Shown here: piece after piece, positions 415-51,320 of the stretch
Layout of the letters: each line of letters opens with the position of its first letter
How positions within the stretch are numbered: position 1 is the stretch's first letter
From: a virus
Taxonomy: Duplodnaviria; Heunggongvirae; Uroviricota; Caudoviricetes
IMG/VR virus record: IMGVR_UViG_2718218098_000003
DNA length: 51,596 bases
Strand: one strand, 5' to 3'
The notes under the pieces: generated by a model
The model's input: the letters and a program-made list of their open reading frames with translations, nothing else
Told to the model about the DNA's origin: nothing
Database searches by the model: none
Translations under genes and position numbers: made by a program

Positions 415-603
415 ACATTTCAGCTGATGACCACCACGCTTTTTATTGACCATTTTGCACGCAAACTGGAAAACCTGGCGTCGTCATCTATTCTTAAAGG
501 GCAAGGCAACTAAGCCTGCATTAATGCCAACTTTTAGCGCACGGCTCTCTCCCAAGAGCCATTTCCCTGGACCGAATACAGGAATCGTATTCGGTCTTTT
601 TTT
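375..603 (-). ncRNA. ryeA: RyeA (SraC) antisense sRNA, 3' portion; 5' end probably displaced by the prophage
   Basis: Minus-strand terminator at 374-414 and full complementarity to sdsR; extent inferred from recalled K-12 locus, not seen directly. Confidence 0.3.
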
Positions 604-604
604 A
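501..604 (+). ncRNA. sdsR: Small RNA SdsR (RyeB)
   Basis: Sequence gcaaggcaactaagcctgcattaatgccaacttttagcgcacggctctctcccaagagcc...accgaatacaggaatcgtattcggtcttttttt matches recalled SdsR; ends in an intrinsic terminator that coincides with the att core. Confidence 0.7.
578..603. repeat. attL core (direct repeat with 50504-50530)
   Basis: acaggaatcgtattcggtcttttttt versus acaggaatcgtgttcggtctcttttta at right end; adjacent to int. Confidence 0.6.
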
Positions 605-734
605 ATTGTATTTAAAATCAATTAGTTGCAAACGTCTCCCCGAAATTACTCGAAATTTACTCGAATTTCTGTATTCCGGTCTTTTTTGATTATATCACAA
701 CCAAAACACATTTAACAATCCATTTACGTTAAAA

Positions 735-2164: not shown

Positions 2165-2425
2165 TCACGAGGACAGAAGTTTCTCGCAATTAAAATTTAT
2201 CAGCTTTACTTTCTGCTCTCTGGACACGCCTGCTTCTTTTTTCCCTGAGAGCATTTTTTCGCATTCTGATTTCGTTAATTTAGATTTTGAATATCTTGTC
2301 CAGTTAGTAGGAGTGCCACCTTCTTTTTCAATAGTGGCAGTTATTTTATACATGAACACCTCCATTATTATTTCCAGTAGTTCGTTTATTCCATCTTTCG
2401 AGTGCTTCTTTTTCACTTCCACCAT
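2165..2425 (-). CDS. Hypothetical protein (early-left operon)
   Basis: 86-aa ORF between xis and lar-like gene; no recognisable motif; start uncertain. Confidence 0.4.
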   Translation of the reverse strand: MVEVKKKHSKDGINELLEIIMEVFMYKITATIEKEGGTPTNWTRYSKSKLTKSECEKMLSGKKEAGVSREQKVKLINFNCEKLLSS

Positions 2426-15812: not shown

Positions 15813-15899
15813 AAACGGTTTGCGGGAAAAGGAGAGTTAAGTAGAATTGCTGCGGGTGCTTGAGGCTATCTGCCTCAGGCATGAACACCAACGGCAGAT

Positions 15900-15990
15900 A
15901 GAGAAAAGCCCCAGTTAACATTACGCGTCTTGCAGGACGCTTAACATTAATCTGAGGCCCAATCTATGTCTCACAAATGTAGGTTAGCCT
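15900..15990 (-). ncRNA. Candidate Sok-type antisense RNA region (not delimited)
   Basis: Placement inferred from hok/sok architecture; no promoter or terminator resolved. Confidence 0.2.
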
Positions 15991-16022
15991 CTTACGTGCC
16001 GAAAGGCAAGGAGAAGCAGGCT

Positions 16023-16178
16023 ATGAAGCAGCAAAAGGCGATGTTAATCGCCCTGATCGTCATCTGTTTAACCGTCATAGTGACGGCACTGGTAACGAGG
16101 AAAGACCTCTGCGAGGTACGAATCCGAACCGGCCAGACGGAGGTCGCTGTCTTCACAGCTTACGAACCTGAGGAGTAA
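16023..16178 (+). CDS. hok: Hok/Gef-family type I toxin (HokD/RelF-like)
   Basis: 51-aa MKQQKAMLIALIVICLTVIVTALVTRKDLCEVRIRTGQTEVAVFTAYEPEE; SD aaggag; in-frame upstream extension from 15966 (mok-like). Confidence 0.85.
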   Translation: MKQQKAMLIALIVICLTVIVTALVTRKDLCEVRIRTGQTEVAVFTAYEPEE

Positions 16179-16566: not shown

Positions 16567-16584
16567 TGATGGGTATTGTGCTCT

Positions 16585-17070
16585 ATGGCTGAGATTGTTG
16601 AAGGAGTGCACTACCTTTCGGTTGATGATCTTACTGAAATTAATCGCCTTTTAATTGAGCTTCAAACACCAGATGAACCTGTTGGTGTGCTGAGTGTTGA
16701 TAATTTAAGTTCTTCTCAGTCTCGTCCCAGTATGGTTCGATGGTATGAGCAAACCAACGACATGTTTGTACTGGCATCGGTATTGATTGAAAGTCTGATT
16801 CAGAATCATCCATTTGCCAATGCAAACAAGCGCACAGCAATGATGGCTGGTGCGGTTTTTTTATTGTTAAATGGATACGAATTAACCGCACCAGGCGATG
16901 AAGTTGTGGAGATGGCTGAGGGGCTGGCCTGTAAAATTTATACACGAGAAGAGCTTGAAAATTGGTTGTGTTATTGGTCTCGTGCGTATGACAGTCGGGA
17001 ATTATGTAAAACAGGCGCAACTATTGTTTTGTATGAAACTATCAAGCTTAAAATAGAACAGCAAAACTAA
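16585..17070 (+). CDS. Doc/Fic-family toxin (Doc-like kinase)
   Basis: Motif HPFANANKRTA fits the Doc variant HxFx(D/N)(A/G)NKR of the Fic signature; 161 aa. Confidence 0.7.
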   Translation: MAEIVEGVHYLSVDDLTEINRLLIELQTPDEPVGVLSVDNLSSSQSRPSMVRWYEQTNDMFVLASVLIESLIQNHPFANANKRTAMMAGAVFLLLNGYELTAPGDEVVEMAEGLACKIYTREELENWLCYWSRAYDSRELCKTGATIVLYETIKLKIEQQN

Positions 17071-18177: not shown

Positions 18178-18467
18178 TGGTGAATTTACGTAAAGCGGCT
18201 AAAGGCCAGATGTGCCAGATCAGAATCCCTGGCTACTGCAATCACAATCCCGAAACCTCTGTGCTGGCGCATTACAGGCTGGCGGGGACGTGCGGAACAG
18301 CGACAAAACCACACGATATGCAGGCGGCGATAGCCTGTAGCTCATGCCACGATCTAATCGACGGGCGGGTAAAAACCAGCGATTACACCAAAGAAGAATT
18401 GCGCCTGATGCATGCTGAAGGGGTTTTTCGCACACAAGAAATCTGGAGAAAGGAAGGTCATTTATGA
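18177..18467 (+). CDS. YbcO-like putative nuclease (DUF1364), Cys-rich
   Basis: 96 aa, CQIRIPGYCNHNPETSVLAHY...CSSCHDLIDG. Confidence 0.55.
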   Translation: MVNLRKAAKGQMCQIRIPGYCNHNPETSVLAHYRLAGTCGTATKPHDMQAAIACSSCHDLIDGRVKTSDYTKEELRLMHAEGVFRTQEIWRKEGHL

Positions 18468-19006
18468 TTTACCCAACGAATACAGGAAAAAGCGGAGAAC
18501 ACCTTCGCCTCACCACGCTGGAAAGTGTCTGGATTCAGGGAAAACTACGTATGTGGGGGCGCTGGTCGTATATTGGCGGTGGCAGGTCAGGGAATATGTT
18601 CAATCAGTTGTTGGCATCCAAAAAACTGACGAAAACAGCCATTAATGAAGCCTTGCGCAGAATGAAAAAAGCGGGAATAGAGAAAGCTGAGCTGGAAGCG
18701 TTTTTGCGAGAGATGATCAACGGCAAGCAAAAGAGCTGGCTGGCGCATTGTACTGATGCAGAGGCGTTATGTATTGATCGAGTCATAAGTGAGGTGCTGG
18801 CAGAGCATCCAGGATTGATTTGCATTCTCCGGCAATGCTATGAAGGGCGGGGGATGACTAAGCGCAAAATGGCTGAATTGCTAAATGATGCACACCCAGA
18901 GTGGTGTTTTAGCACATGCGAAAAGCGAATTGCTAATTGGTTGGCCGTTGCTGAGTATGCGCTATACATTCCTATGCGAGAATCATTCGCTCAAAAAACG
19001 GCTTGA
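18464..19006 (+). CDS. Late-gene antiterminator Q (phage 82/933W-type family)
   Basis: 180 aa with RMWGRWSYIGGG near the N-terminus (WGxW motif recalled from Q proteins); located immediately upstream of the tRNA cluster and lysis genes. Confidence 0.55.
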   Translation: MIYPTNTGKSGEHLRLTTLESVWIQGKLRMWGRWSYIGGGRSGNMFNQLLASKKLTKTAINEALRRMKKAGIEKAELEAFLREMINGKQKSWLAHCTDAEALCIDRVISEVLAEHPGLICILRQCYEGRGMTKRKMAELLNDAHPEWCFSTCEKRIANWLAVAEYALYIPMRESFAQKTA

Positions 19007-19194: not shown

Positions 19195-19223
19195 TTGCAA
19201 CATTGATTTCGTAACGTTATTAT
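19195..19223 (+). promoter_or_regulatory. Sigma-70-like promoter upstream of the tRNA cluster
   Basis: -35 ttgcaa, 17-bp spacer, -10 tattat, ~10 bp before first tRNA. Confidence 0.5.
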
Positions 19224-19232
19224 CCTGCGCTC

Positions 19233-19307
19233 GGCCCTTTAGCTCAGTGGTGAGAGCGAGCGACTCATAATCGCCAGGTCGCTGGTTCAAATCCAGCAAG
19301 GGCCACC
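19233..19307 (+). tRNA. tRNA-Ile (anticodon CAU, lysidine-type; ileX/ileZ-like)
   Basis: Cloverleaf read by hand; anticodon loop ctCATaa; close to recalled E. coli ileX. Confidence 0.8.
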
Positions 19308-19309
19308 TG

Positions 19310-19386
19310 TCGTCACTAGCTCACCTGGAAAGAGCATCAACCTTCTAAGTTGAGCGTACGAGGTTCGAGTCCTCGGTGGCGGTCCA
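19310..19386 (+). tRNA. tRNA-Arg (anticodon UCU)
   Basis: Anticodon loop ctTCTaa, T-loop ttcgagt, CCA encoded. Confidence 0.65.
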
Positions 19387-19388
19387 GT

Positions 19389-19464
<76 letters not shown>

Positions 19465-19467
19465 TAT

Positions 19468-19542
<75 letters not shown>

Positions 19543-20313
19543 GCATTTGAAACAAGCCTTATTGTATTGCGGCACTGGCGCATTTTTTTATTACGTGGGA
19601 GCAGGTTGTTTTGAAAAAGCATTCTGTTCTCTGGCTATGATTTGAGGCCGGGTGTAGCCTCAGTGCTGATTTTTTACGGCAGCAGAATGGTGCATTATCG
19701 GTGGAGATTTTGTATTTCCTGGCAGGGGCGGTGATGCATCATTTTGGTGTTGTAAAAGCACCGCAGAGGCGTTCCTCAGGGCGAGGGTGGTTTAAATAGT
19801 CGGTTTAGCGGGAAACCACAGTATCCATACAGCACGGAATACTTCGGGAGATACCCGACGCCTCGGTTTACTATAATAAAGACGAAGCATCCTTTGTATT
19901 GACAAACCGCCTGCTTAGACGGTTCTTTTTTGGCTGGTTTATTGTATGCCAAATCATTATTGAAAGGACTGTATTAATAACAAAATCCGAAATAATATGC
20001 CTGCATATTGTTAGTTTTCTTATGCTTTTTGTATATTGCTGCACCGCAGCCCCCCCTGCAACGAAAGTTGTATGATGAATAATTTTTATTTTTTCCTTTT
20101 CCAGTCATCTGAGGATGCTGGCTTCTTTTAGCTCCGGCCCGACAATACGGGGATATCACGTCAGGGGATGAAGGAATTAATTGCGTTGCCGGGGAAGCAT
20201 CGTCAGCTTTTTTAAGATAACTCCTGTGTGTTATGTGCATAAATGCTACAAACTCCACATTTTATGTGGTTGGGAGTTGCCGGGCGCGCAGTGAGTTTGC
20301 TAAGAAAACTCCT

Positions 20314-20415
20314 GCATGGTGAATCCCCCTGTGCGGTGGGGTGATACCATTAACTTTTTTGTCGCCGACAGGTATCACGAACGTTTTGTTCACCGGGAGG
20401 CACCCGGCACCATGC
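20314..20415 (+). other. Structured repeat element copy A (conserved 5' and 3' boxes, variable internal helix)
   Basis: gcatggtgaatccccctgtgcggtgggg...gtgatacc/ggtatcac...caccgggaggcacccggcaccatgc. Confidence 0.6.
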
Positions 20416-20580
20416 ACTTCAATAGATTCTCTCCACATTATTGATATTCTTTCAGAATATCCCACACAGACTTTGTGTAAATGTTAACGAATGTGCGTTT
20501 TATTTGATCTAATCCGCTGTTTGAGCGTTCAAAACAACGGTATATGTAATCCTTTACTATATGACATATTGTGAGGAAAA

Positions 20581-21009
20581 ATGGGTTTTCGTAGCGCATC
20601 AACTCTTACGTTGATTGCTGGTGGGATTATTGTCGGATGCACTGATGCTGTGTCGACAAATTATTACGACCGGGCATCATATTACTCCGATAAATCAACA
20701 GAGACACAGTATGTGAGTTCATCTGAACGTACTACTGATGTTAGTGAAGATATCCGTCAGTATGCCCATCAAATCAAGAACGCCATCGAAAAACAGTTCG
20801 GGGATGCGAGTAAGTATTCAGGAAAAGAGTGTACGCTTAGCATGCATATGGCCCCGAATGGCCTTCTACTGGAGGTTAAAAGAGAAAGTGGAGACCTCGA
20901 TTTATGTCGTGAAGCGATGAATGCGATAAAGAATGCTGATATACCAGCGCCGCCGTCTCCGGAAGTATATAAAGTATTTCACAATGGAGTGCTGGATTTT
21001 AAACCGTGA
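20581..21009 (+). CDS. Lipoprotein with TolA C-terminal (domain III)-like domain
   Basis: 142 aa; lipobox IIVGC after MGFRSASTLTLIAGG; C-terminus YAHQIKNAIEKQFGDASKYSGKECTL...EVYKVFHNGVLDFKP resembles recalled TolA C-terminus; SD gagga. Confidence 0.65.
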   Translation: MGFRSASTLTLIAGGIIVGCTDAVSTNYYDRASYYSDKSTETQYVSSSERTTDVSEDIRQYAHQIKNAIEKQFGDASKYSGKECTLSMHMAPNGLLLEVKRESGDLDLCREAMNAIKNADIPAPPSPEVYKVFHNGVLDFKP

Positions 21010-21207
21010 TTCTACATCTTTGCAGTAAACAATAATCATAATTGCATGTTTTTTCTGTGGTGGGGTATTTGGCTTCTGTTGCCTGCGATGTATTGTGGAG
21101 CTGGTATCAGCCTGCAGAAAATGCACACAGGTGTGAAGTGTTAAATTCCACACAACTCAGAACGCAGAATGTTGTCCTGCTTGCGGGGAGTTTGTTAAAA
21201 GAGTACT

Positions 21208-21329
21208 GCATGGTGAATCCTCATGAGCGGAGGGGCATAATGACAGATGTTTGGTCGCGTTATCGTATAGGCAAGTTGCGGATTCTGTCTGGTCATTGCA
21301 GAATTCACCGGGAGGCACCCGGCACCATG
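21208..21329 (+). other. Structured repeat element copy B
   Basis: gcatggtgaatcctcatgagcggagggg...aatgac/gtcatt...caccgggaggcacccggcaccatg. Confidence 0.6.
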
Positions 21330-21460
21330 TATTTTCAATATTTTATTGATTATTCTCTTTTTCGGAATACTCTGGTTATGTTTTCCTGTAACTGATAATT
21401 AAATCACATTTTGTGTAAATGTATATTGTCTGAACGGGATAAGTTCAGTATCTTCTGAAT

Positions 21461-21584
21461 GTATGGCGAATCCCCCTGTGCGGCGGGGCGTACTGATTTA
21501 AGTAGTCATCCAAGAATGCAGCTGAATGAAAACGCGCTCCATATTAATCAGTGGTGGAGCACCGGGAGGCACCCGGCGCCATAC
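21461..21584 (+). other. Structured repeat element copy C (compensatory changes in closing helix)
   Basis: gtatggcgaatccccctgtgcggcgggg...actgatt/aatcagt...caccgggaggcacccggcgccatac. Confidence 0.6.
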
Positions 21585-21610
21585 CGATGATGAAAATAAA
21601 TGCGTCCATC

Positions 21611-21636
21611 AGCCCCTCTCCGGAGGGGCTTTTTTA
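21611..21636 (+). terminator. Intrinsic terminator
   Basis: agcccctctccggaggggcttttt. Confidence 0.65.
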
Positions 21637-21641
21637 TGGGC

Positions 21642-21672
21642 AAAAAAAGCCCGCTACGAATGGTAACGGGCT
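21642..21672 (-). terminator. Minus-strand intrinsic terminator (back-to-back with 21611-21636)
   Basis: Plus strand aaaaaaagcccgctacgaatggtaacgggct. Confidence 0.45.
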
Positions 21673-21817
21673 GCACAAAATAACAAAATGTGAAGTATTC
21701 TAATCAGCCGCTGAATAATACCCGACAGTAATTAATCTGTGCAACGGCGCTTTTTCCCGCCTTGCAGGCACCGACTCTCTCATTTGATTTAACGCATTAT
21801 CCCGTCCGGGAGGGTTC

Positions 21818-22399
21818 ATGACATTTAAATATTATGATGTGGTTTCGGCCAGAACAACTGATGAATTAAAGCGGAAACTGAACGAAAAAATCCGTGAAGG
21901 ATGGCAGCCTTATGAAACAATATCTGTTTCATCTGTGAGTGGTACTGAAGACATATATCATCAGCCAGTTGCTGCTGAGGGGGAGGTGAGTACGCCGGTG
22001 ATACGTCCTGATGCAGGTGATGATTCATCTGTGGCTGTCTCCGGATCGCCTGATTATTACTACGTGGTGGTACTGGCGGGGCAGTCAAATGGCATGACCT
22101 ATGGTGAAGGGCTTCCGTTACCGGATTCATTTGACCGCCCGGACCCACGGATTAAGCAACTGGCACGCCGCAGCACGGTCACGCCAGGCGGTACGACGTG
22201 TAAATACAATGACATCATTCCGGCAGACCACTGCCTGCATGATGTGCAGGACATGAGCGGGATAAACCACCCGAAAGCTGACCTGAACAAGGGGCAGTAT
22301 GGTTGTGTGAGTCAGGGGCTGCATATTGCCAAAAAACTGCTGCCTTATATCCCGCAGAATGCCGGGATACTTCTGGTGCCCTGTTGCCGTGGCGGCTGA
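21818..22399 (+). pseudogene. Truncated nanS-p-type sialate O-acetylesterase (N-terminal part only)
   Basis: 193 aa; VVVLAGQSNGMTYGEGLPLP is the start of an SGNH/SASA esterase domain; full-length relatives recalled as >600 aa; SD ggagg. Confidence 0.55.
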
Positions 22400-22858: not shown

Positions 22859-23074
22859 ATGTACCAGATGGAAAAAATCACAACAGGTGTGTCATACACC
22901 ACGTCTGCGGTGGGGACGGGATACTGGTTTCTGCAGTTGCTGGACAGGGTATCCCCGTCTCAGTGGGCGGCAATAGGCGTGCTGGGGAGTCTGCTGTTTG
23001 GTCTGCTGACATACCTGACGAACCTGTATTTCAAAATTAAAGAAGACCGACGCAAGGCGGCGCGGGGAGAGTAG
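22859..23074 (+). CDS. S: Pinholin (phage 21 S-type holin), dual start at 22859 and 22868
   Basis: [71 protein letters not shown] resembles recalled S21. Confidence 0.8.
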
Positions 23075-23077
23075 GTG

Positions 23078-23629
23078 ATGAAAAAACAATACGAACTGGT
23101 TGTTAAAGGGATAAATAATTACGGGGATAAGGTTACTGTTACTGTGAAGCCGGAAGGTGACGGGCAAGCGTCGCTGTTGTCGCAATATGTGGTGATTGAT
23201 CTTGATCGTGTTGAAGGTGCCCCGCTGGAGTGTTACGAAGCTGAGGCGAAAAAGCAGGCGAAGCAGTTTTTCATGGATGTAGCTGCCGGGTTATGTGGAG
23301 GGGATGAGCAGTCGCCGGAAAAGCGCCCCATAATTTTAGAGGCGCAGAATGTGTGGATAACCTACAGAGGAAAACTACCGGGAAGAATTACTGGTTCTCT
23401 GAAGACGCCACCGACGGCATTGCGGTCAGAAAAAGATGATATTGAATCGCTCATTGAAAAACTGGAGGGCAGCGTCGCTGATCTGAATAAAAAATTGTCG
23501 GTGCTGATTCCTTCTGAAGATGAAAAAAAACGCCGCGATGAGCAGTTTGCGGCGTTTTACGATTATTGCATTGAAGTTACTCGCAGGAATTTTGTGAAGA
23601 TCTTTGAGGAGGGTAAATCTCTTCAGTAA
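23078..23629 (+). CDS. Hypothetical protein inserted between holin and endolysin
   Basis: 184 aa; start abuts holin stop; no motif recognised. Confidence 0.45.
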   Translation: MKKQYELVVKGINNYGDKVTVTVKPEGDGQASLLSQYVVIDLDRVEGAPLECYEAEAKKQAKQFFMDVAAGLCGGDEQSPEKRPIILEAQNVWITYRGKLPGRITGSLKTPPTALRSEKDDIESLIEKLEGSVADLNKKLSVLIPSEDEKKRRDEQFAAFYDYCIEVTRRNFVKIFEEGKSLQ

Positions 23630-23837
23630 GCTTAATGGCGGACGCTGCAATTAATTCAGGAAGGTCCGCAAGGCCATCTGTCAGTGGATATGATGAAAAA
23701 TCGGCGGCAGTTCTGTTAAGAAGCGCTTTAACTAATTCCTTTTCCTTTTCCGGCAACAAGTTGATTAGAGCTACGACTGCTTGCCTGAGTGCGATTAAAT
23801 CAGCAAAAGTTTGTTTTGGTAGATTTGTGTAATCCAT
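23577..23837 (-). CDS. Hypothetical small protein, convergent with and overlapping 23078-23629
   Basis: 86 aa from MDYTNLPKQTFADLIALRQ...; SD agaggtg upstream of ATG 23837. Confidence 0.4.
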   Translation of the reverse strand: MDYTNLPKQTFADLIALRQAVVALINLLPEKEKELVKALLNRTAADFSSYPLTDGLADLPELIAASAIKLTEEIYPPQRSSQNSCE

Positions 23838-23951
23838 AGTCACCTCTGTGTTTATCAGATTGACATCCTCCTCCCGCCAGTGCCCATCACTGGCGAGGTA
23901 AGATTTAACATATCCGGGGGATTTGAAGCCGATAAATCCTGATAAATATCC

Positions 23952-24485
23952 ATGAACGTAAAAATCAGATACAGCCTGTCAGCTGCCGTTCTGGCGCTGA
24001 TTGCCGCCAGTGCTCCTGCCCCCGACATTCTCGATCAGTTTCTGGATGAAAAAGAGGGGAATCACACCACTGCATACCGCGATGGCTCCGGCATATGGAC
24101 CATCTGTCGGGGAGCAACGATGGTGGACGGTAAACCTGTTATTCCGGGAATGAAACTGTCGAAGGAAAAATGCGCCCAGGTTAACGCCATTGAGCGTGAT
24201 AAGGCGCTGGCATGGGTGGAGCGCAATATTAAAGTGCCACTGACCGAACCACAGAAAGCGGGTATAGCGTCATTTTGTCCCTATAACATTGGCCCCGGTA
24301 AGTGTCTCCCGTCGACGTTTTATAAGCGGCTTAATGCCGGTGATCGTAAGGGGGCATGCGAGGCGATTCGCTGGTGGATAAAAGATGGTGGGCGCGATTG
24401 CCGCATACGTTCAAATAACTGCTATGGACAGGTTATTCGTCGTGACCAGGAAAGCGCATTAGCCTGTTGGGGGATAGATCAGTGA
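23952..24485 (+). CDS. R: SAR endolysin (T4-lysozyme-type, signal-anchor-release)
   Basis: 177 aa; N-terminal SAR helix [18 protein letters not shown]; lysozyme core resembles recalled R21. Confidence 0.8.
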
Positions 24486-24949
24486 GCAGAGTCGCCGCGA
24501 TTATTTATGCTCTGGTTATCTGCATCATCGTCTGTCTGTTATGGGTGGTTAATCATTACCGTGATAACGCCATCGCCTACAAAGAACAGCGTGATAAAAA
24601 AGTCAGTGAGCTGAAGCAGGCGACCGCCACCATTACTGACATGCAGCAACGCCAGCGTGCTGCTGATGTACTCGATGCTAAATACACGAAGGAGTTGGCT
24701 GATGCGAAAGCTGAAAATGATGCTCTTCGGCGCAAGCTTGATAATGGTGGTCGGGTGCTCGTCAAAGGAAAATGCTCTGTGCCATCCTCAGCCGAAACCT
24801 CCAGCGCCTCCGGCATGGGCAATGATGCCACCGTCGAACTCTCTCCAGTTGCTGGACGAAACGTTCTCGGTATCCGGGACGGAATCATCAGAGACCAGAC
24901 AGCACTGAGAACGCTTCAGGAATATATCAGGACGCAATGCCTTCGATGA
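24482..24949 (+). CDS. Rz: i-spanin Rz
   Basis: GTG start overlapping endolysin stop; N-terminal [21 protein letters not shown] then coiled coil. Confidence 0.75.
24702..24908 (+). CDS. Rz1: o-spanin Rz1 (lipoprotein, embedded in Rz in +1 frame)
   Basis: [22 protein letters not shown] lipobox; Pro-rich [11 protein letters not shown]; SD ggag. Confidence 0.75.
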
Positions 24950-50530: not shown

Positions 50531-50663
50531 TCTGTTAAAAGCCAGAAGCATTTCCTTCGCTGACTTTATAGTCAACCATAACACACACTCTACTGTCTGA
50601 GTCCAGCGTTTTTTAACATTCTTGTTAAGATTATGTGATCTTTAGCGCGGGAGGAAAATATTG

Positions 50664-51320
50664 ATGAAACAGCCTGCGCCCGTTTATCAGAGAATTGCGG
50701 GTCATCAATGGCGACATATCTGGCTTTCTGGCGATATACACGGTTGTCTTGAGCAGTTGCGCCGCAAATTATGGCATTGTCGTTTTGATCCGTGGCGAGA
50801 TTTACTTATCTCAGTAGGAGACGTTATCGATCGTGGGCCGCAAAGTTTACGTTGTCTGCAGTTACTGGAACAACATTGGGTTTGTGCGGTAAGAGGCAAT
50901 CATGAACAGATGGCGATGGATGCGCTGGCATCCCAGCAGATGTCTTTGTGGTTGATGAATGGCGGCGACTGGTTTATTGCGCTGGCAGATAATCAACAGA
51001 AACAAGCGAAAACGGCGCTGGAAAAATGTCAGCATTTGCCCTTTATTCTTGAAGTACACAGTCGTACCGGCAAACATGTTATTGCTCATGCCGATTATCC
51101 AGATGATGTTTATGAATGGCAAAAGGACGTTGATTTGCATCAGGTCTTGTGGAGCCGCTCGCGATTAGGTGAACGCCAAAAAGGGCAGGGAATTACAGGT
51201 GCTGATCATTTCTGGTTTGGTCATACACCGTTGCGACATCGCGTGGATATTGGCAACCTGCATTATATTGATACCGGTGCTGTCTTTGGGGGCGAACTGA
51301 CTCTTGTGCAATTGCAATAA
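50664..51320 (+). CDS. pphA: Serine/threonine protein phosphatase 1 (host)
   Basis: Metallophosphatase motifs GDIHG, GDVIDRG, GNHE; 218 aa; matches recalled PphA; SD gggagg. Confidence 0.8.
   Translation: MKQPAPVYQRIAGHQWRHIWLSGDIHGCLEQLRRKLWHCRFDPWRDLLISVGDVIDRGPQSLRCLQLLEQHWVCAVRGNHEQMAMDALASQQMSLWLMNGGDWFIALADNQQKQAKTALEKCQHLPFILEVHSRTGKHVIAHADYPDDVYEWQKDVDLHQVLWSRSRLGERQKGQGITGADHFWFGHTPLRHRVDIGNLHYIDTGAVFGGELTLVQLQ

What the first reader, a model, noticed from the sequence alone, without database searches (positions are those of the whole stretch)
20581..21009. Prophage lipoprotein carrying a TolA domain-III-like C-terminus at the toxin-cargo position
The 142-aa product has a lipoprotein signal (lipobox IIVGC, Thr at +2, suggesting outer-membrane sorting). 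Its last ~80 residues resemble the C-terminal domain of TolA as I recall it (TolA ends ...YAGQIKSAIESKFYDASSYAGKTCTL...QAVYEVFKNAPLDFKP; here YAHQIKNAIEKQFGDASKYSGKECTL...PEVYKVFHNGVLDFKP). TolA domain III is the contact point for TolB/Pal and for the import of group A colicins and filamentous-phage g3p. A membrane-tethered decoy copy could block Tol-dependent import (superinfection exclusion or colicin immunity) or perturb the host Tol-Pal system. It sits downstream of Q and the tRNAs, the standard cargo site.
Basis: partly seen in the sequence, partly recalled or inferred. Interest (0 to 1): 0.75.

Follow-up and report, generated by a model that had tools for sequence, protein, structure and literature searches.

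The report
Prophage lipoprotein mimicking TolA's docking domain
A prophage gene encodes a membrane-tethered copy of only the tip of the host protein TolA, the tip that colicin toxins and filamentous phages grab to enter the cell, so it most likely acts as a decoy; it is common in E. coli, is mislabelled as "TolA", and has not been studied.

Summary
Window 20581-21009 (+) encodes a 142-aa protein with three parts. Residues 1-20 are a lipoprotein signal (IVGC lipobox, Thr at +2). Residues 21-54 are a disordered Ser/Thr/Tyr-rich linker. Residues 55-142 are a complete TolA C-terminal domain: Pfam E=7e-24, 57% identical to E. coli TolA 334-421, and the model superposes at 0.6 Å.

It is not TolA. 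It lacks the membrane anchor, domain II and the tol-pal context. The database name comes from a C-terminal-only profile hit.

The strand that binds TolB, g3p and colicin N (LDFKP) is identical to TolA's. Both disulfide cysteines are kept, and the domain is under purifying selection (dN/dS about 0.1-0.3). The gene lies between the Q-like gene plus tRNAs and the holin, bracketed by STnc100 copies.

About 16% of complete E. coli genomes carry it, usually with a second, divergent paralogue. Related lipoproteins occur on more than 1,300 plasmids, and in Klebsiella they are paired with a secreted TonB C-terminal domain.

Best reading (about 0.5): an energy-uncoupled decoy that gives tolerance to Tol-dependent colicins and filamentous phages. 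The main rival is deliberate weakening of Tol-Pal at lysis. Function is inferred, not shown. I found no literature on it.

The parts
20581..21009 (+). CDS, 142 aa: outer-membrane-type lipoprotein carrying a stand-alone TolA C-terminal domain (type 1, MGFR allele)
   Evidence: ORF list. Pfam PF06519 E=6.9e-24. PHROG 5772, unknown function, E=6e-59. PDB TolA-III E about 1e-26.
20581..20640 (+). Signal peptide with lipobox (aa 1-20, ...IIVGC); Cys20 is the predicted lipidated residue, +2 Thr, +3 Asp
   Evidence: Read from the sequence. Cys20 is kept in all full-length homologues. None of the 106 lipobox-bearing short TolA-III proteins collected has Asp at +2.
20641..20742 (+). Linker, aa 21-54, Ser/Thr/Tyr/Asp-rich, predicted disordered
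   Evidence: pLDDT below 50 for residues 19-50. Composition. dN/dS is higher than in the domain.
20743..21006 (+). TolA domain III (aa 55-142, equivalent to E. coli TolA 334-421): disulfide Cys84/Cys109, colicin A box LLEVKR (aa 96-101), beta3 strand LDFKP (aa 138-142)
   Evidence: Gap-free alignment to the PDB chains. Residue map. Model and superposition. dN/dS 0.09-0.30.
20521..20550 (+). Promoter-like site TTGAGC-18 nt-TGTAAT, ending 30 nt before the ATG; in the common allele the second hexamer is TATAAT
   Evidence: The scanner finds TTGAGC-18-TATAAT (10 of 12) at the homologous place in L006. It is present in 37 of 38 MGFR-type viral loci, and in the window with G at position 2. This is a consensus match only, and the loci are near-identical copies.
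20573..20576 (+). Shine-Dalgarno GAGG, 4 nt before the ATG
   Evidence: Sequence.
20284..20457 (+). STnc100 sRNA-like element, upstream boundary of the cassette (shortened copy, weak terminator)
   Evidence: Rfam RF02076, 80.5 bits against a gathering score of 47. Alignment of the three copies. The same element lies at the same distance upstream in L001, L002, L006 and L008 and in 35 of 38 viral loci.
21179..21383 (+). STnc100 copy, downstream boundary of the cassette
   Evidence: Rfam, 104.2 bits.
21434..21641 (+). Third STnc100 copy, ending in a strong intrinsic terminator (21611-21636)
   Evidence: Rfam, 102.6 bits. Terminator scan.
18464..19006 (+). Context: Q-like late-gene regulator (DUF1133, weak Phage_antitermQ match)
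   Evidence: Pfam. In other prophages the same slot holds annotated antitermination proteins (Q or another type).
19233..19542 (+). Context: four tRNA genes (Met, Arg-UCU, Thr-UGU, Gly-UCC)
   Evidence: ARAGORN. Rfam.
22859..24949 (+). Context: lysis cassette (P21-type holin, DUF1327/YdfR, lysozyme, Rz)
   Evidence: Pfam.

Best explanation
The gene is a prophage cargo gene (moron). [quoted passage not shown] A roughly 34-residue flexible tether then holds a complete TolA domain III in the outer periplasm.

The protein lacks TolA's transmembrane helix, which couples to the TolQ-TolR motor, and lacks the long helical domain II. It can therefore bind whatever binds TolA-III but cannot transmit force. 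It would act as a competitive sink. The translocation domains of Tol-dependent (group A) colicins and the g3p N1 domain of filamentous phages emerge into the periplasm at the outer membrane. There they would be captured by the decoy instead of by the real, energised TolA, and import would stall. The lysogen would become tolerant to these toxins and phages.

Colicin and g3p complexes with TolA-III are micromolar. The physiological TolA-TolB complex is 40-250 micromolar. A moderate dose of decoy should therefore trap invaders preferentially while sparing most Tol-Pal function.

Shown here: domain identity, fold, a retained binding strand and disulfide, a lipoprotein signal, purifying selection, genomic position and distribution.
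Inferred: outer-membrane location, expression in the lysogen, ligand binding and the protective phenotype.
For: (1) The domain is complete and 57% identical to E. coli TolA-III, with the same fold.

(2) Ligand-binding elements are kept. The beta3 strand L417-D418-F419-K420-P421, through which g3p N1, colicin N and the TolB N-terminus bind by strand augmentation (PMC4339652; PMC7391070), is identical. Y340, I344, I348 and F412 are kept. Two of the three colicin A cation-pi lysines (K379, K396) and the LL..K core of the colicin A box (PMC3365938) are kept. F140 (equivalent to F419) is invariant across 48 diverse stand-alone homologues.

(3) The TolQR-coupling anchor and domain II are absent. The whole protein is 142 aa.

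(4) The lipobox is conserved across two different signal peptides. Asp at +2 is never seen in 106 relatives.

(5) The domain's dN/dS is 0.09-0.30, lower than in the linker for the closer allele pair (0.09 against 0.49); against the MYCR allele the two regions are similar (0.30 against 0.25).

(6) The gene has a moron-like setting. GC is 42-44% against about 50% in the flanks. In the common allele a promoter-like site lies upstream and a terminator follows the two-gene unit. The same cassette appears in different prophage backbones.

(7) Relatives occur on non-lytic elements. 1,306 plasmid records carry one, including pO157. On 10-12 kb Klebsiella plasmids the TolA-III lipoprotein overlaps a Sec-secreted TonB C-terminal domain. 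What these two domains share is being the docking points for imported bacteriocins and phages.

(8) Affinity gap: TolA-TolB Kd is 40-250 uM, against about 1-3 uM for colicin N.

(9) Precedent, from my own knowledge and from reference lists only: periplasmic TolAIII makes E. coli colicin- and phage-tolerant and leaky (Levengood-Freyermuth 1993; Wan and Baneyx 1998, cited and used in PMC6195910).
Against: There are no expression, localisation or binding data. The promoter is only a consensus match, its -10 hexamer in this window is the weaker TGTAAT, and the 38 supporting loci are near-identical copies rather than independent observations.

The gene lies inside the Q-dependent late operon, so its main expression may come at lysis.

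The laboratory precedent also produced outer-membrane leakiness, which is a cost. Because TolB binds the same strand, the decoy could harm the host.

The colicin A box is altered (D377E, I378V, P380R, K368H).

A single colicin molecule can kill a cell, so a decoy must be very efficient.

Frameshifted 157-aa alleles exist, showing the gene is dispensable.

Only 1 of 50,697 deposited phage genomes carries it.

Some distant relatives in Serratia are ordinary chromosomal genes with no mobile-element context.
Confidence: 0.5

Rival explanations
1. Late-gene saboteur of Tol-Pal. The protein is made in bulk from the Q-antiterminated late transcript. The outer-membrane-tethered TolA-III titrates the N-terminus of TolB next to Pal. 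This uncouples Tol-Pal, loosens the outer membrane and promotes vesiculation, which would help the final step of lysis or release of progeny and cargo.
For: The gene lies between the Q-like gene and the holin in every prophage examined. TolB binds the conserved beta3 site. Periplasmic TolAIII is used in the laboratory precisely to make E. coli leak periplasmic proteins. The Tol-Pal review notes that modulating TolB interactions could regulate vesicle production.
Against: Homologues with the same architecture sit on plasmids and chromosomes that have no lysis programme. The phage already has a holin, endolysin and Rz-type spanin. The TolA-TolB affinity is weak. A promoter-like site and low GC suggest an independent moron rather than a core lysis gene. 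Many lambdoid phages lack the gene.
Confidence: 0.2
2. Envelope-physiology modulator in the lysogen. Mild interference with, or buffering of, TolA-TolB cycling changes outer-membrane permeability, vesicle output or Rcs signalling. This would alter nutrient uptake, stress tolerance or general phage adsorption rather than blocking specific Tol-dependent invaders.
For: The KingRac prophage spread to an invading K-12 strain in the mouse gut and gave a fitness or metabolic benefit that could not be assigned to any gene. It carries a 96.8%-identical copy. The authors speculated about altered outer-membrane properties. The exact window allele is found in mouse-gut E. coli.
Against: This is correlation only, since KingRac carries dozens of other genes. 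It offers no specific reason for keeping the colicin- and g3p-binding elements, or for the pairing with a TonB C-terminal domain on plasmids.
Confidence: 0.12
3. Non-functional passenger. This is a captured 3' fragment of a tolA gene that happens to be carried along in the recombination-prone Q-S region and is merely mis-annotated.
For: The region is a mosaic bounded by repeated STnc100 elements. Frameshifted alleles and truncated copies exist.
Against: A fragment would not acquire a lipoprotein signal, twice and with different sequences. The domain's dN/dS is 0.09-0.30. The reading frame is intact in 788 genomes. A Shine-Dalgarno sequence is present. The same architecture recurs in distant lineages.
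Confidence: 0.05
4. It is a genuine TolA (cell envelope integrity protein), as RefSeq annotates it.
For: NCBIfam TIGR02794 scores 77.9 bits, above its 59.45 cut-off. PGAP names it tolA in every genome.
Against: Only profile positions 259-362 of 362 match. The protein falls below the PRK09510 cut-off (107 against 213 bits). It is 142 aa, with no TolQR-coupled transmembrane helix and no domain II. It has a lipoprotein signal instead, and it lies in a prophage rather than the tol-pal operon.
Confidence: 0.01

Closest known systems
E. coli TolA domain III (residues 334-421; PDB 1S62, 3QDP, 1TOL, 2X9A)
   Same: Same fold (rmsd 0.6 Å) and 57% identity. The disulfide, the beta3 strand LDFKP and the Pfam family PF06519 are the same.
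   Different: The domain stands alone. There is no inner-membrane anchor, no domain II and no coupling to TolQ-TolR. It is tethered by a lipid to the other membrane, encoded by a prophage, and has several surface substitutions, including in the colicin A box.
Engineered periplasmic TolAIII (Levengood-Freyermuth, Click and Webster 1993; Wan and Baneyx 1998)
   Same: An uncoupled TolA-III in the periplasm. It is reported to give colicin and Ff-phage tolerance and outer-membrane leakiness (my knowledge; reference list and use in PMC6195910). This is the mechanistic model for the decoy reading.
   Different: That was a laboratory construct: soluble, overexpressed and carrying the E. coli sequence. 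Here the protein is natural, lipid-anchored, diverged, and probably expressed at a different level.
Phage and prophage exclusion lipoproteins Cor (phi80, N15, HK022-type) and Llp (T5)
   Same: They are small outer-membrane lipoproteins encoded by phages that block entry of other phages and colicins by acting on the host uptake machinery (my knowledge; Llp in bioRxiv 10.64898/2026.03.26.714494, listed).
   Different: Cor and Llp bind and plug the receptor FhuA. This protein would instead imitate a periplasmic translocation hub and titrate the invader. No similarity to them was seen: the PHROG family is of unknown function and there is no PADLOC hit.
Filamentous-phage g3p expressed in the host (Tol-minus phenocopy, superinfection resistance)
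   Same: It targets the same interaction, g3p N1 with TolA-III beta3, and gives tolerance to colicins and Ff phages (my knowledge; the interaction is described).
   Different: The logic is the inverse. g3p occupies the host's TolA, whereas this protein would occupy the invader's TolA-binding domain.
Lambdoid morons Bor, Lom and Stx
   Same: They are accessory genes inserted in the late region of lambdoid prophages, with a composition unlike their neighbours. Here the gene sits in the slot where stx lies, with STnc100 next to it as in Stx2 phages. Lom is present in this prophage.
   Different: The proteins and functions are unrelated.
Periplasmic TonB C-terminal fragments and mobile-element TonB_C proteins
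   Same: The concept runs in parallel. On Klebsiella ColRNAI plasmids a Sec-secreted TonB_C protein is translationally overlapped with a TolA-III lipoprotein. Small TonB_C genes also occur in temperate phages. Periplasmic TonB fragments are dominant-negative in the laboratory (my knowledge, Howard et al. 2001).
   Different: This is a different domain family (PF03544), and no such gene is present in this window.

Membership tests
TolA C-terminal domain (Pfam PF06519) | Significant match over the whole domain profile | tested here: met
   84.3 bits against a cut-off of 25, E=6.9e-24, profile positions 4-96 of 96.
TolA C-terminal domain (Pfam PF06519) | The TolA-III fold (helices packed on a three-stranded sheet) with the conserved disulfide | tested here: met
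   AF2 model with pLDDT above 90 over the domain. Foldseek to 2X9A_B gives rmsd 0.6 Å and TM 0.96. Cys84 and Cys109 correspond to TolA C363 and C388 and are invariant.
Full-length TolA (cell envelope integrity protein; TIGR02794 / PRK09510) | N-terminal transmembrane helix that couples to TolQ-TolR | tested here: not met
   The N-terminus is a cleavable lipoprotein signal. The profile matches start at positions 259 and 292.
Full-length TolA (cell envelope integrity protein; TIGR02794 / PRK09510) | Long Ala/Lys/Glu-rich helical domain II spanning the periplasm | tested here: not met
   Only a 34-residue Ser/Thr/Tyr-rich disordered linker precedes the domain.
Full-length TolA (cell envelope integrity protein; TIGR02794 / PRK09510) | Located in the ybgC-tolQRA-tolB-pal-cpoB cluster | tested here: not met
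   The neighbours are a Q-like gene, tRNAs, STnc100 copies and a lysis cassette inside a prophage.
Full-length TolA (cell envelope integrity protein; TIGR02794 / PRK09510) | Score above the curated equivalog cut-off | tested here: inconclusive
   The score is above the cut-off for TIGR02794 (77.9 against 59.45) and below it for PRK09510 (107 against 213). Both hits are C-terminal only. This explains the RefSeq misnomer.
Bacterial lipoproteins (outer-membrane sorted) | Signal peptide ending in a lipobox [LVI][ASTVI][GAS]C | tested here: met
   The sequence is ...IIVGC with Cys20, an Arg4 n-region and a hydrophobic core. It is conserved in homologues. No dedicated predictor was available.
Bacterial lipoproteins (outer-membrane sorted) | No Asp at +2 (the Lol-avoidance signal) | tested here: met
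   +2 is Thr. No relative among 106 has Asp at +2. Actual localisation was not tested.
Bacterial lipoproteins (outer-membrane sorted) | Lipidation and processing by Lgt and LspA | not testable with these tools
   This needs globomycin sensitivity, palmitate labelling and membrane fractionation.
Phage moron | Non-essential insert between conserved phage genes, present in some relatives and absent in others | tested here: met
   The same cassette occurs in different backbones. It is absent from nearly all deposited lambdoid phages. It sits in the stx slot flanked by STnc100.
Phage moron | Own promoter and terminator; expressed in the lysogen | tested here: inconclusive
   A promoter-like site scores 9-10 of 12, and a terminator follows the two-gene unit in the common allele. 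In the window the next strong terminator is 600 nt downstream. There are no transcript data.
Phage moron | Composition unlike its neighbours | tested here: met
   GC is 0.42-0.44 across 19700-21700, against 0.47-0.53 in the flanks.
Superinfection-exclusion / anti-phage defence proteins | Homology to a catalogued defence or exclusion protein | tested here: not met
   PADLOC gives no hit. PHROG 5772 is of unknown function.
Superinfection-exclusion / anti-phage defence proteins | Confers resistance to a phage or bacteriocin | not testable with these tools
   This needs plating and killing assays.

The most novel reading that the evidence does not exclude
Mobile elements of Enterobacterales (prophages, small mobilisable plasmids, virulence plasmids) widely carry secreted stand-alone copies of the C-terminal domains of TolA and TonB, the two envelope energy transducers. 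These would work as 'translocon mimics': energy-uncoupled decoys that trap incoming bacteriocins and phage entry proteins in the periplasm. That would be a broad, receptor-independent immunity layer that has gone unnoticed because annotation pipelines call the genes 'TolA' or 'TonB family protein'.
Probability: 0.4. Interest if true: 0.85.

Novelty: new variant of a known kind. Interest (0 to 1): 0.68.

Why it matters
If the decoy reading is right, a sixth to a quarter of E. coli genomes, and more than a thousand sequenced plasmids, carry an unrecognised determinant of tolerance to Tol-dependent colicins, klebicins and filamentous phages. Many of those plasmids are in clinical Klebsiella.

This bears on three areas:
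- Strain competition in the gut. One carrier, the KingRac prophage, spreads and confers an unexplained benefit in mice.
- The design of colicin- or bacteriocin-based antimicrobials and of phage-display or phage-therapy vectors.
- How Tol-Pal tolerates competitors for TolB.

It would also be a natural dominant-negative probe of the TolA-TolB interaction. Independently of function, the RefSeq name 'cell envelope integrity protein TolA' for these 120-160-aa lipoproteins is wrong and inflates tolA counts.

Tried and rejected
(1) The first AlphaFold2 run, on a shallow 15-sequence alignment, gave pLDDT 54. I replaced it with a 48-sequence alignment.

(2) The search for related loci with the diverse alignment failed because no conserved stretch was available. 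I repeated it with the close family.

(3) I looked for a remnant of the second (type 2) TolA-III gene downstream of the window gene. There is no homology beyond the stop codon. The apparent lipobox-like ORF at 21042-21395 overlaps the STnc100 copy at 21179-21383 and has no support.

(4) I looked for an intrinsic terminator directly after the gene and found none. The nearest strong one belongs to the third STnc100 copy.

(5) All ten allowed literature searches turned up no paper describing a prophage- or plasmid-borne TolA-III lipoprotein. Hits for 'tolA' in O157 expression and proteome papers concerned the chromosomal gene or appeared only in reference lists. The key 1993 paper (PMC196117) is not held, so it is cited from memory and from reference lists.

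(6) PADLOC gave no hit.

(7) I asked whether the wider family is always on mobile elements. It is not: the Serratia members are ordinary chromosomal genes.

(8) I considered and rejected three readings: a real TolA, a decaying gene fragment, and an inner-membrane lipoprotein. The reasons are given under the rival explanations and the membership tests.

Full report
**What is there**

Window 20581-21009 (+) is an intact ORF of 142 codons with GAGG 4 nt upstream of the ATG. The product has three parts.

- Residues 1-20 (MGFRSASTLTLIAGGIIVGC) have the form of a lipoprotein signal: a basic n-region, a hydrophobic core and the lipobox I-V-G-C. The +2 residue is Thr and +3 is Asp.
- Residues 21-54 are rich in Ser, Thr, Tyr and Asp and are predicted disordered, with pLDDT below 50.
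- Residues 55-142 are a complete TolA C-terminal domain. Pfam PF06519 matches at E=6.9e-24 over 93 of 96 profile positions. The PDB chains of E. coli TolA-III match at E about 1e-26, with a gap-free alignment to TolA 334-421 and 50/88 identities.

A first model from a shallow alignment was poor. A second, from 48 sequences, has pLDDT above 90 for 88 residues. It superposes on TolA-III in the If1 g3p complex (2X9A_B) with rmsd 0.6 Å, followed by the other E. coli, Vibrio and Pseudomonas TolA-III structures and then by TonB C-terminal domains.

**It is not TolA**

RefSeq calls this gene 'tolA: cell envelope integrity protein TolA' in all genomes. The reason is visible. The TIGR02794 equivalog model is passed (77.9 against 59.45 bits) by a match to its last 104 positions only. 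The PRK09510 model is not passed.

The protein has no TolQR-coupled transmembrane helix and no domain II, and it is not in the tol-pal cluster. It lies in a lambdoid, Rac-like prophage. That prophage has an integrase, a RecE-type exonuclease, a repressor, lambda-like tail genes and Lom. It is inserted between sdsR/ryeA and a pphA-like gene. PHROGs files the protein in family 5772, of unknown function. PADLOC has no match.

**Setting**

Upstream lie DUF1367, YbcO and a DUF1133 protein with a sub-threshold Phage_antitermQ match, which is the Q position. Four tRNA genes follow.

Downstream lie a truncated DUF1737 (esterase-type) gene, DUF826, a P21-type holin, DUF1327, lysozyme and Rz.

The gene is bracketed by three copies of the prophage sRNA element STnc100. 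The same element lies just downstream of stx2 in Stx2 phages (PMC12370729). So this is indeed the slot where Shiga toxin genes sit.

GC falls to 0.42-0.44 across 19700-21700, against about 0.50 on either side.

A sigma-70-like site, TTGAGC-18-TGTAAT, ends 30 nt before the ATG. In the common allele it reads TATAAT (10 of 12 matches) and was picked up by the scanner. These are consensus matches, not evidence of transcription.

**Distribution and relatives**

The gene is in 888 of 5,426 complete E. coli genomes, mostly as a 93.5%-identical allele. The exact window allele is in mouse-gut isolates.

It occurs in at least three prophage backbones, always between the antiterminator and the lysis genes. 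It also occurs in one sequenced phage genome, mEp460_ev081.

Two allele groups exist, with unrelated signal peptides (MGFR... and MYCR...). Both have Cys20 in a lipobox.

Of the 38 IMG/VR loci with the MGFR allele, 36 extend past the stop, and all 36 carry a second, much more divergent TolA-III lipoprotein starting 151 nt after it. Where the sequence reaches that far, the holin follows. The MYCR loci and the window lack this partner. The window's flanks show it to be a recombinant of the two arrangements.

The second paralogue (Pfam TolA E=1e-14) is in 1,268 of the 5,426 genomes, including 525 plasmid copies of the pO157 type.

An exhaustive HMMER search found many 110-170-aa proteins consisting of a signal plus TolA-III, at 33-50% identity. 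Of 135 such short proteins collected, 106 have a lipobox and none has Asp at +2. Others have ordinary Sec signals.

On plasmids, 1,306 records carry a TolA-III gene. On 10-12 kb mobilisable Klebsiella plasmids the TolA-III lipoprotein overlaps a Sec-secreted TonB C-terminal domain protein, and 422 plasmid records hold the latter. Small TonB_C genes also occur in temperate phages, for example between Rz and terminase in phage JLK-2012.

Some Serratia members are plain chromosomal genes. A rough tree places the prophage type 1 proteins in their own clade, apart from E. coli TolA and from the plasmid forms.

**Is it functional?**

Between the window and the common allele, the domain has 10 synonymous and 4 non-synonymous differences (dN/dS 0.09). 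Against the MYCR allele the ratio is 0.30. Between the window and the common allele, the linker and signal evolve faster. The counts are small, but the direction is consistent. With the independent retention of a lipobox, this argues against a decaying fragment. Some frameshifted 157-aa alleles do exist.

**Mechanism**

The published interfaces are as follows.
- g3p N1 contacts the first helix and adds a strand to beta3.
- Colicin N and the TolB N-terminus use the same beta3 site.
- D418P and K420P abolish g3p and colicin N binding and give a tol phenotype.
- Colicin A adds a strand to 375-LLDIKP-380 on the other side, with cation-pi contacts to K368, K379 and K396 (PMC4339652; PMC3365938; PMC7391070; PMC7066135).

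In the prophage protein the last five residues, LDFKP, are identical to TolA 417-421. F412, F419, Y340, I344 and I348 are kept, as are K379 and K396. The colicin A box reads LLEVKR, and K368 is His. The F419 equivalent is invariant in 48 diverse stand-alone homologues.

The protein therefore keeps what is needed to bind TolA's ligands, but it lacks everything needed to transmit force. TolA-TolB binding is weak (40-250 uM), while colicin N binds at about 1-3 uM. An outer-membrane-tethered, uncoupled copy would be expected to trap invaders preferentially.

There is a laboratory precedent, cited from my own knowledge and from reference lists. Periplasmic TolAIII makes cells tolerant to colicins and Ff phage, and also leaky (Levengood-Freyermuth 1993). 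It is used as a leakiness tool (Wan and Baneyx 1998; PMC6195910).

The pairing with a secreted TonB C-terminal domain on plasmids that have no lysis programme is the strongest circumstantial argument for a protective decoy. It speaks against a purely lysis-related function.

I put the decoy reading at about 0.5, a late-expressed Tol-Pal saboteur at 0.2, a general envelope-physiology modulator at 0.12, and a functionless passenger at 0.05. The binding, location, expression and phenotype steps are all inferred.

**An experimental handle**

The KingRac prophage moved from a resident to an invading K-12 strain in the mouse gut. It gave a benefit that the authors could not assign to any gene (PMC6731689). 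It carries a 96.8%-identical copy in the same position. That system, or phage mEp460_ev081, would allow clean deletion tests.

**Novelty**

Ten full-text searches found no description of prophage- or plasmid-borne TolA-III lipoproteins. The library lacks most subscription journals, so an older report cannot be excluded.

The sequences are in databases, but under a wrong name. Exclusion by small phage lipoproteins (Cor, Llp) and the dominant-negative TolAIII effect are both known. A natural, mobile, lipid-anchored mimic of a translocation hub would be a new variant of that theme.

Noticed in passing
window 20284-20457, 21179-21383, 21434-21641 (+): Three STnc100 (RF02076) copies bracket the gene, and only the third ends in a strong terminator. 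In MGFR-allele prophages the element lies about 110-125 nt upstream of the ATG. In MYCR-allele prophages it lies after the stop. The window combines both arrangements, which suggests STnc100 copies act as recombination points for swapping cargo in the Q-S region.
   Followed up: partly
L006 5601-5975; L002 6580-6975; L005 5863-6294: There is a second, highly divergent TolA-III lipoprotein (type 2, C-terminus ...GFDMRG). It lies 151 nt downstream of the type 1 gene in most E. coli prophages, and as a single gene on pO157-like plasmids. It is in 1,268 of 5,426 complete genomes and is absent from this window.
   Followed up: partly
L003 1080-1451 and 1448-1813 (Klebsiella ColRNAI plasmid pKP18-8-4): Two overlapping genes encode a TolA-III lipoprotein and a Sec-secreted TonB C-terminal domain. 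Apart from a RelE/CopG pair they are the only evident cargo of 10-12 kb mobilisable plasmids. 422 plasmid records hold the TonB_C gene.
   Followed up: partly
L083 3429-3755 (phage JLK-2012 gp70); Stx1a phages; Klebsiella phages: Small stand-alone TonB_C proteins are also encoded by temperate phages. In JLK-2012 the gene lies between Rz and the terminase.
   Followed up: no
L019 20181-20609 (E. coli IGC_EcoliInv_1.1, prophage at ttcA): The KingRac prophage of the mouse-gut evolution experiments carries a 96.8%-identical copy. Its reported fitness benefit has no assigned gene.
   Followed up: partly
window 19233-19542 (+): A cluster of four tRNA genes (Met-CAU, Arg-UCU, Thr-UGU, Gly-UCC) lies directly after a promoter-like site at 19195-19223, downstream of the Q-like gene.
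   Followed up: no
window 21818-22399 (+): A 193-aa ORF has only the DUF1737 N-terminus of the phage esterase (nanS-p/YjhS type). RefSeq marks the homologous gene as a truncated pseudogene.
   Followed up: no
window 16576-17070 (+); 2169-2347 (+); 15854-16028 (+): Other accessory elements of the prophage are a Fic/DOC-family protein, the RalA antitoxin sRNA and a sok antitoxin RNA (hok/sok).
   Followed up: no
window 463-607 and 50661-51320: SdsR/RyeA sRNA genes lie at the left end and a calcineurin-like phosphoesterase (pphA-like) at the right end. This indicates the prophage is inserted between sdsR and pphA. The same cassette occurs in prophages at other sites, for example ttcA.
   Followed up: no
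window 19974-20258 (-): A 94-aa ORF with no Pfam match lies in the low-GC stretch between the tRNAs and the first STnc100 copy. In strain M8 the equivalent place holds IS200 tnpA and iraM.
   Followed up: no
L004 5406-5954: On an IncR Klebsiella plasmid the TolA-III lipoprotein gene is immediately preceded by a secreted thioredoxin-fold (Dsb-like) gene. This may relate to the domain's disulfide.
   Followed up: no
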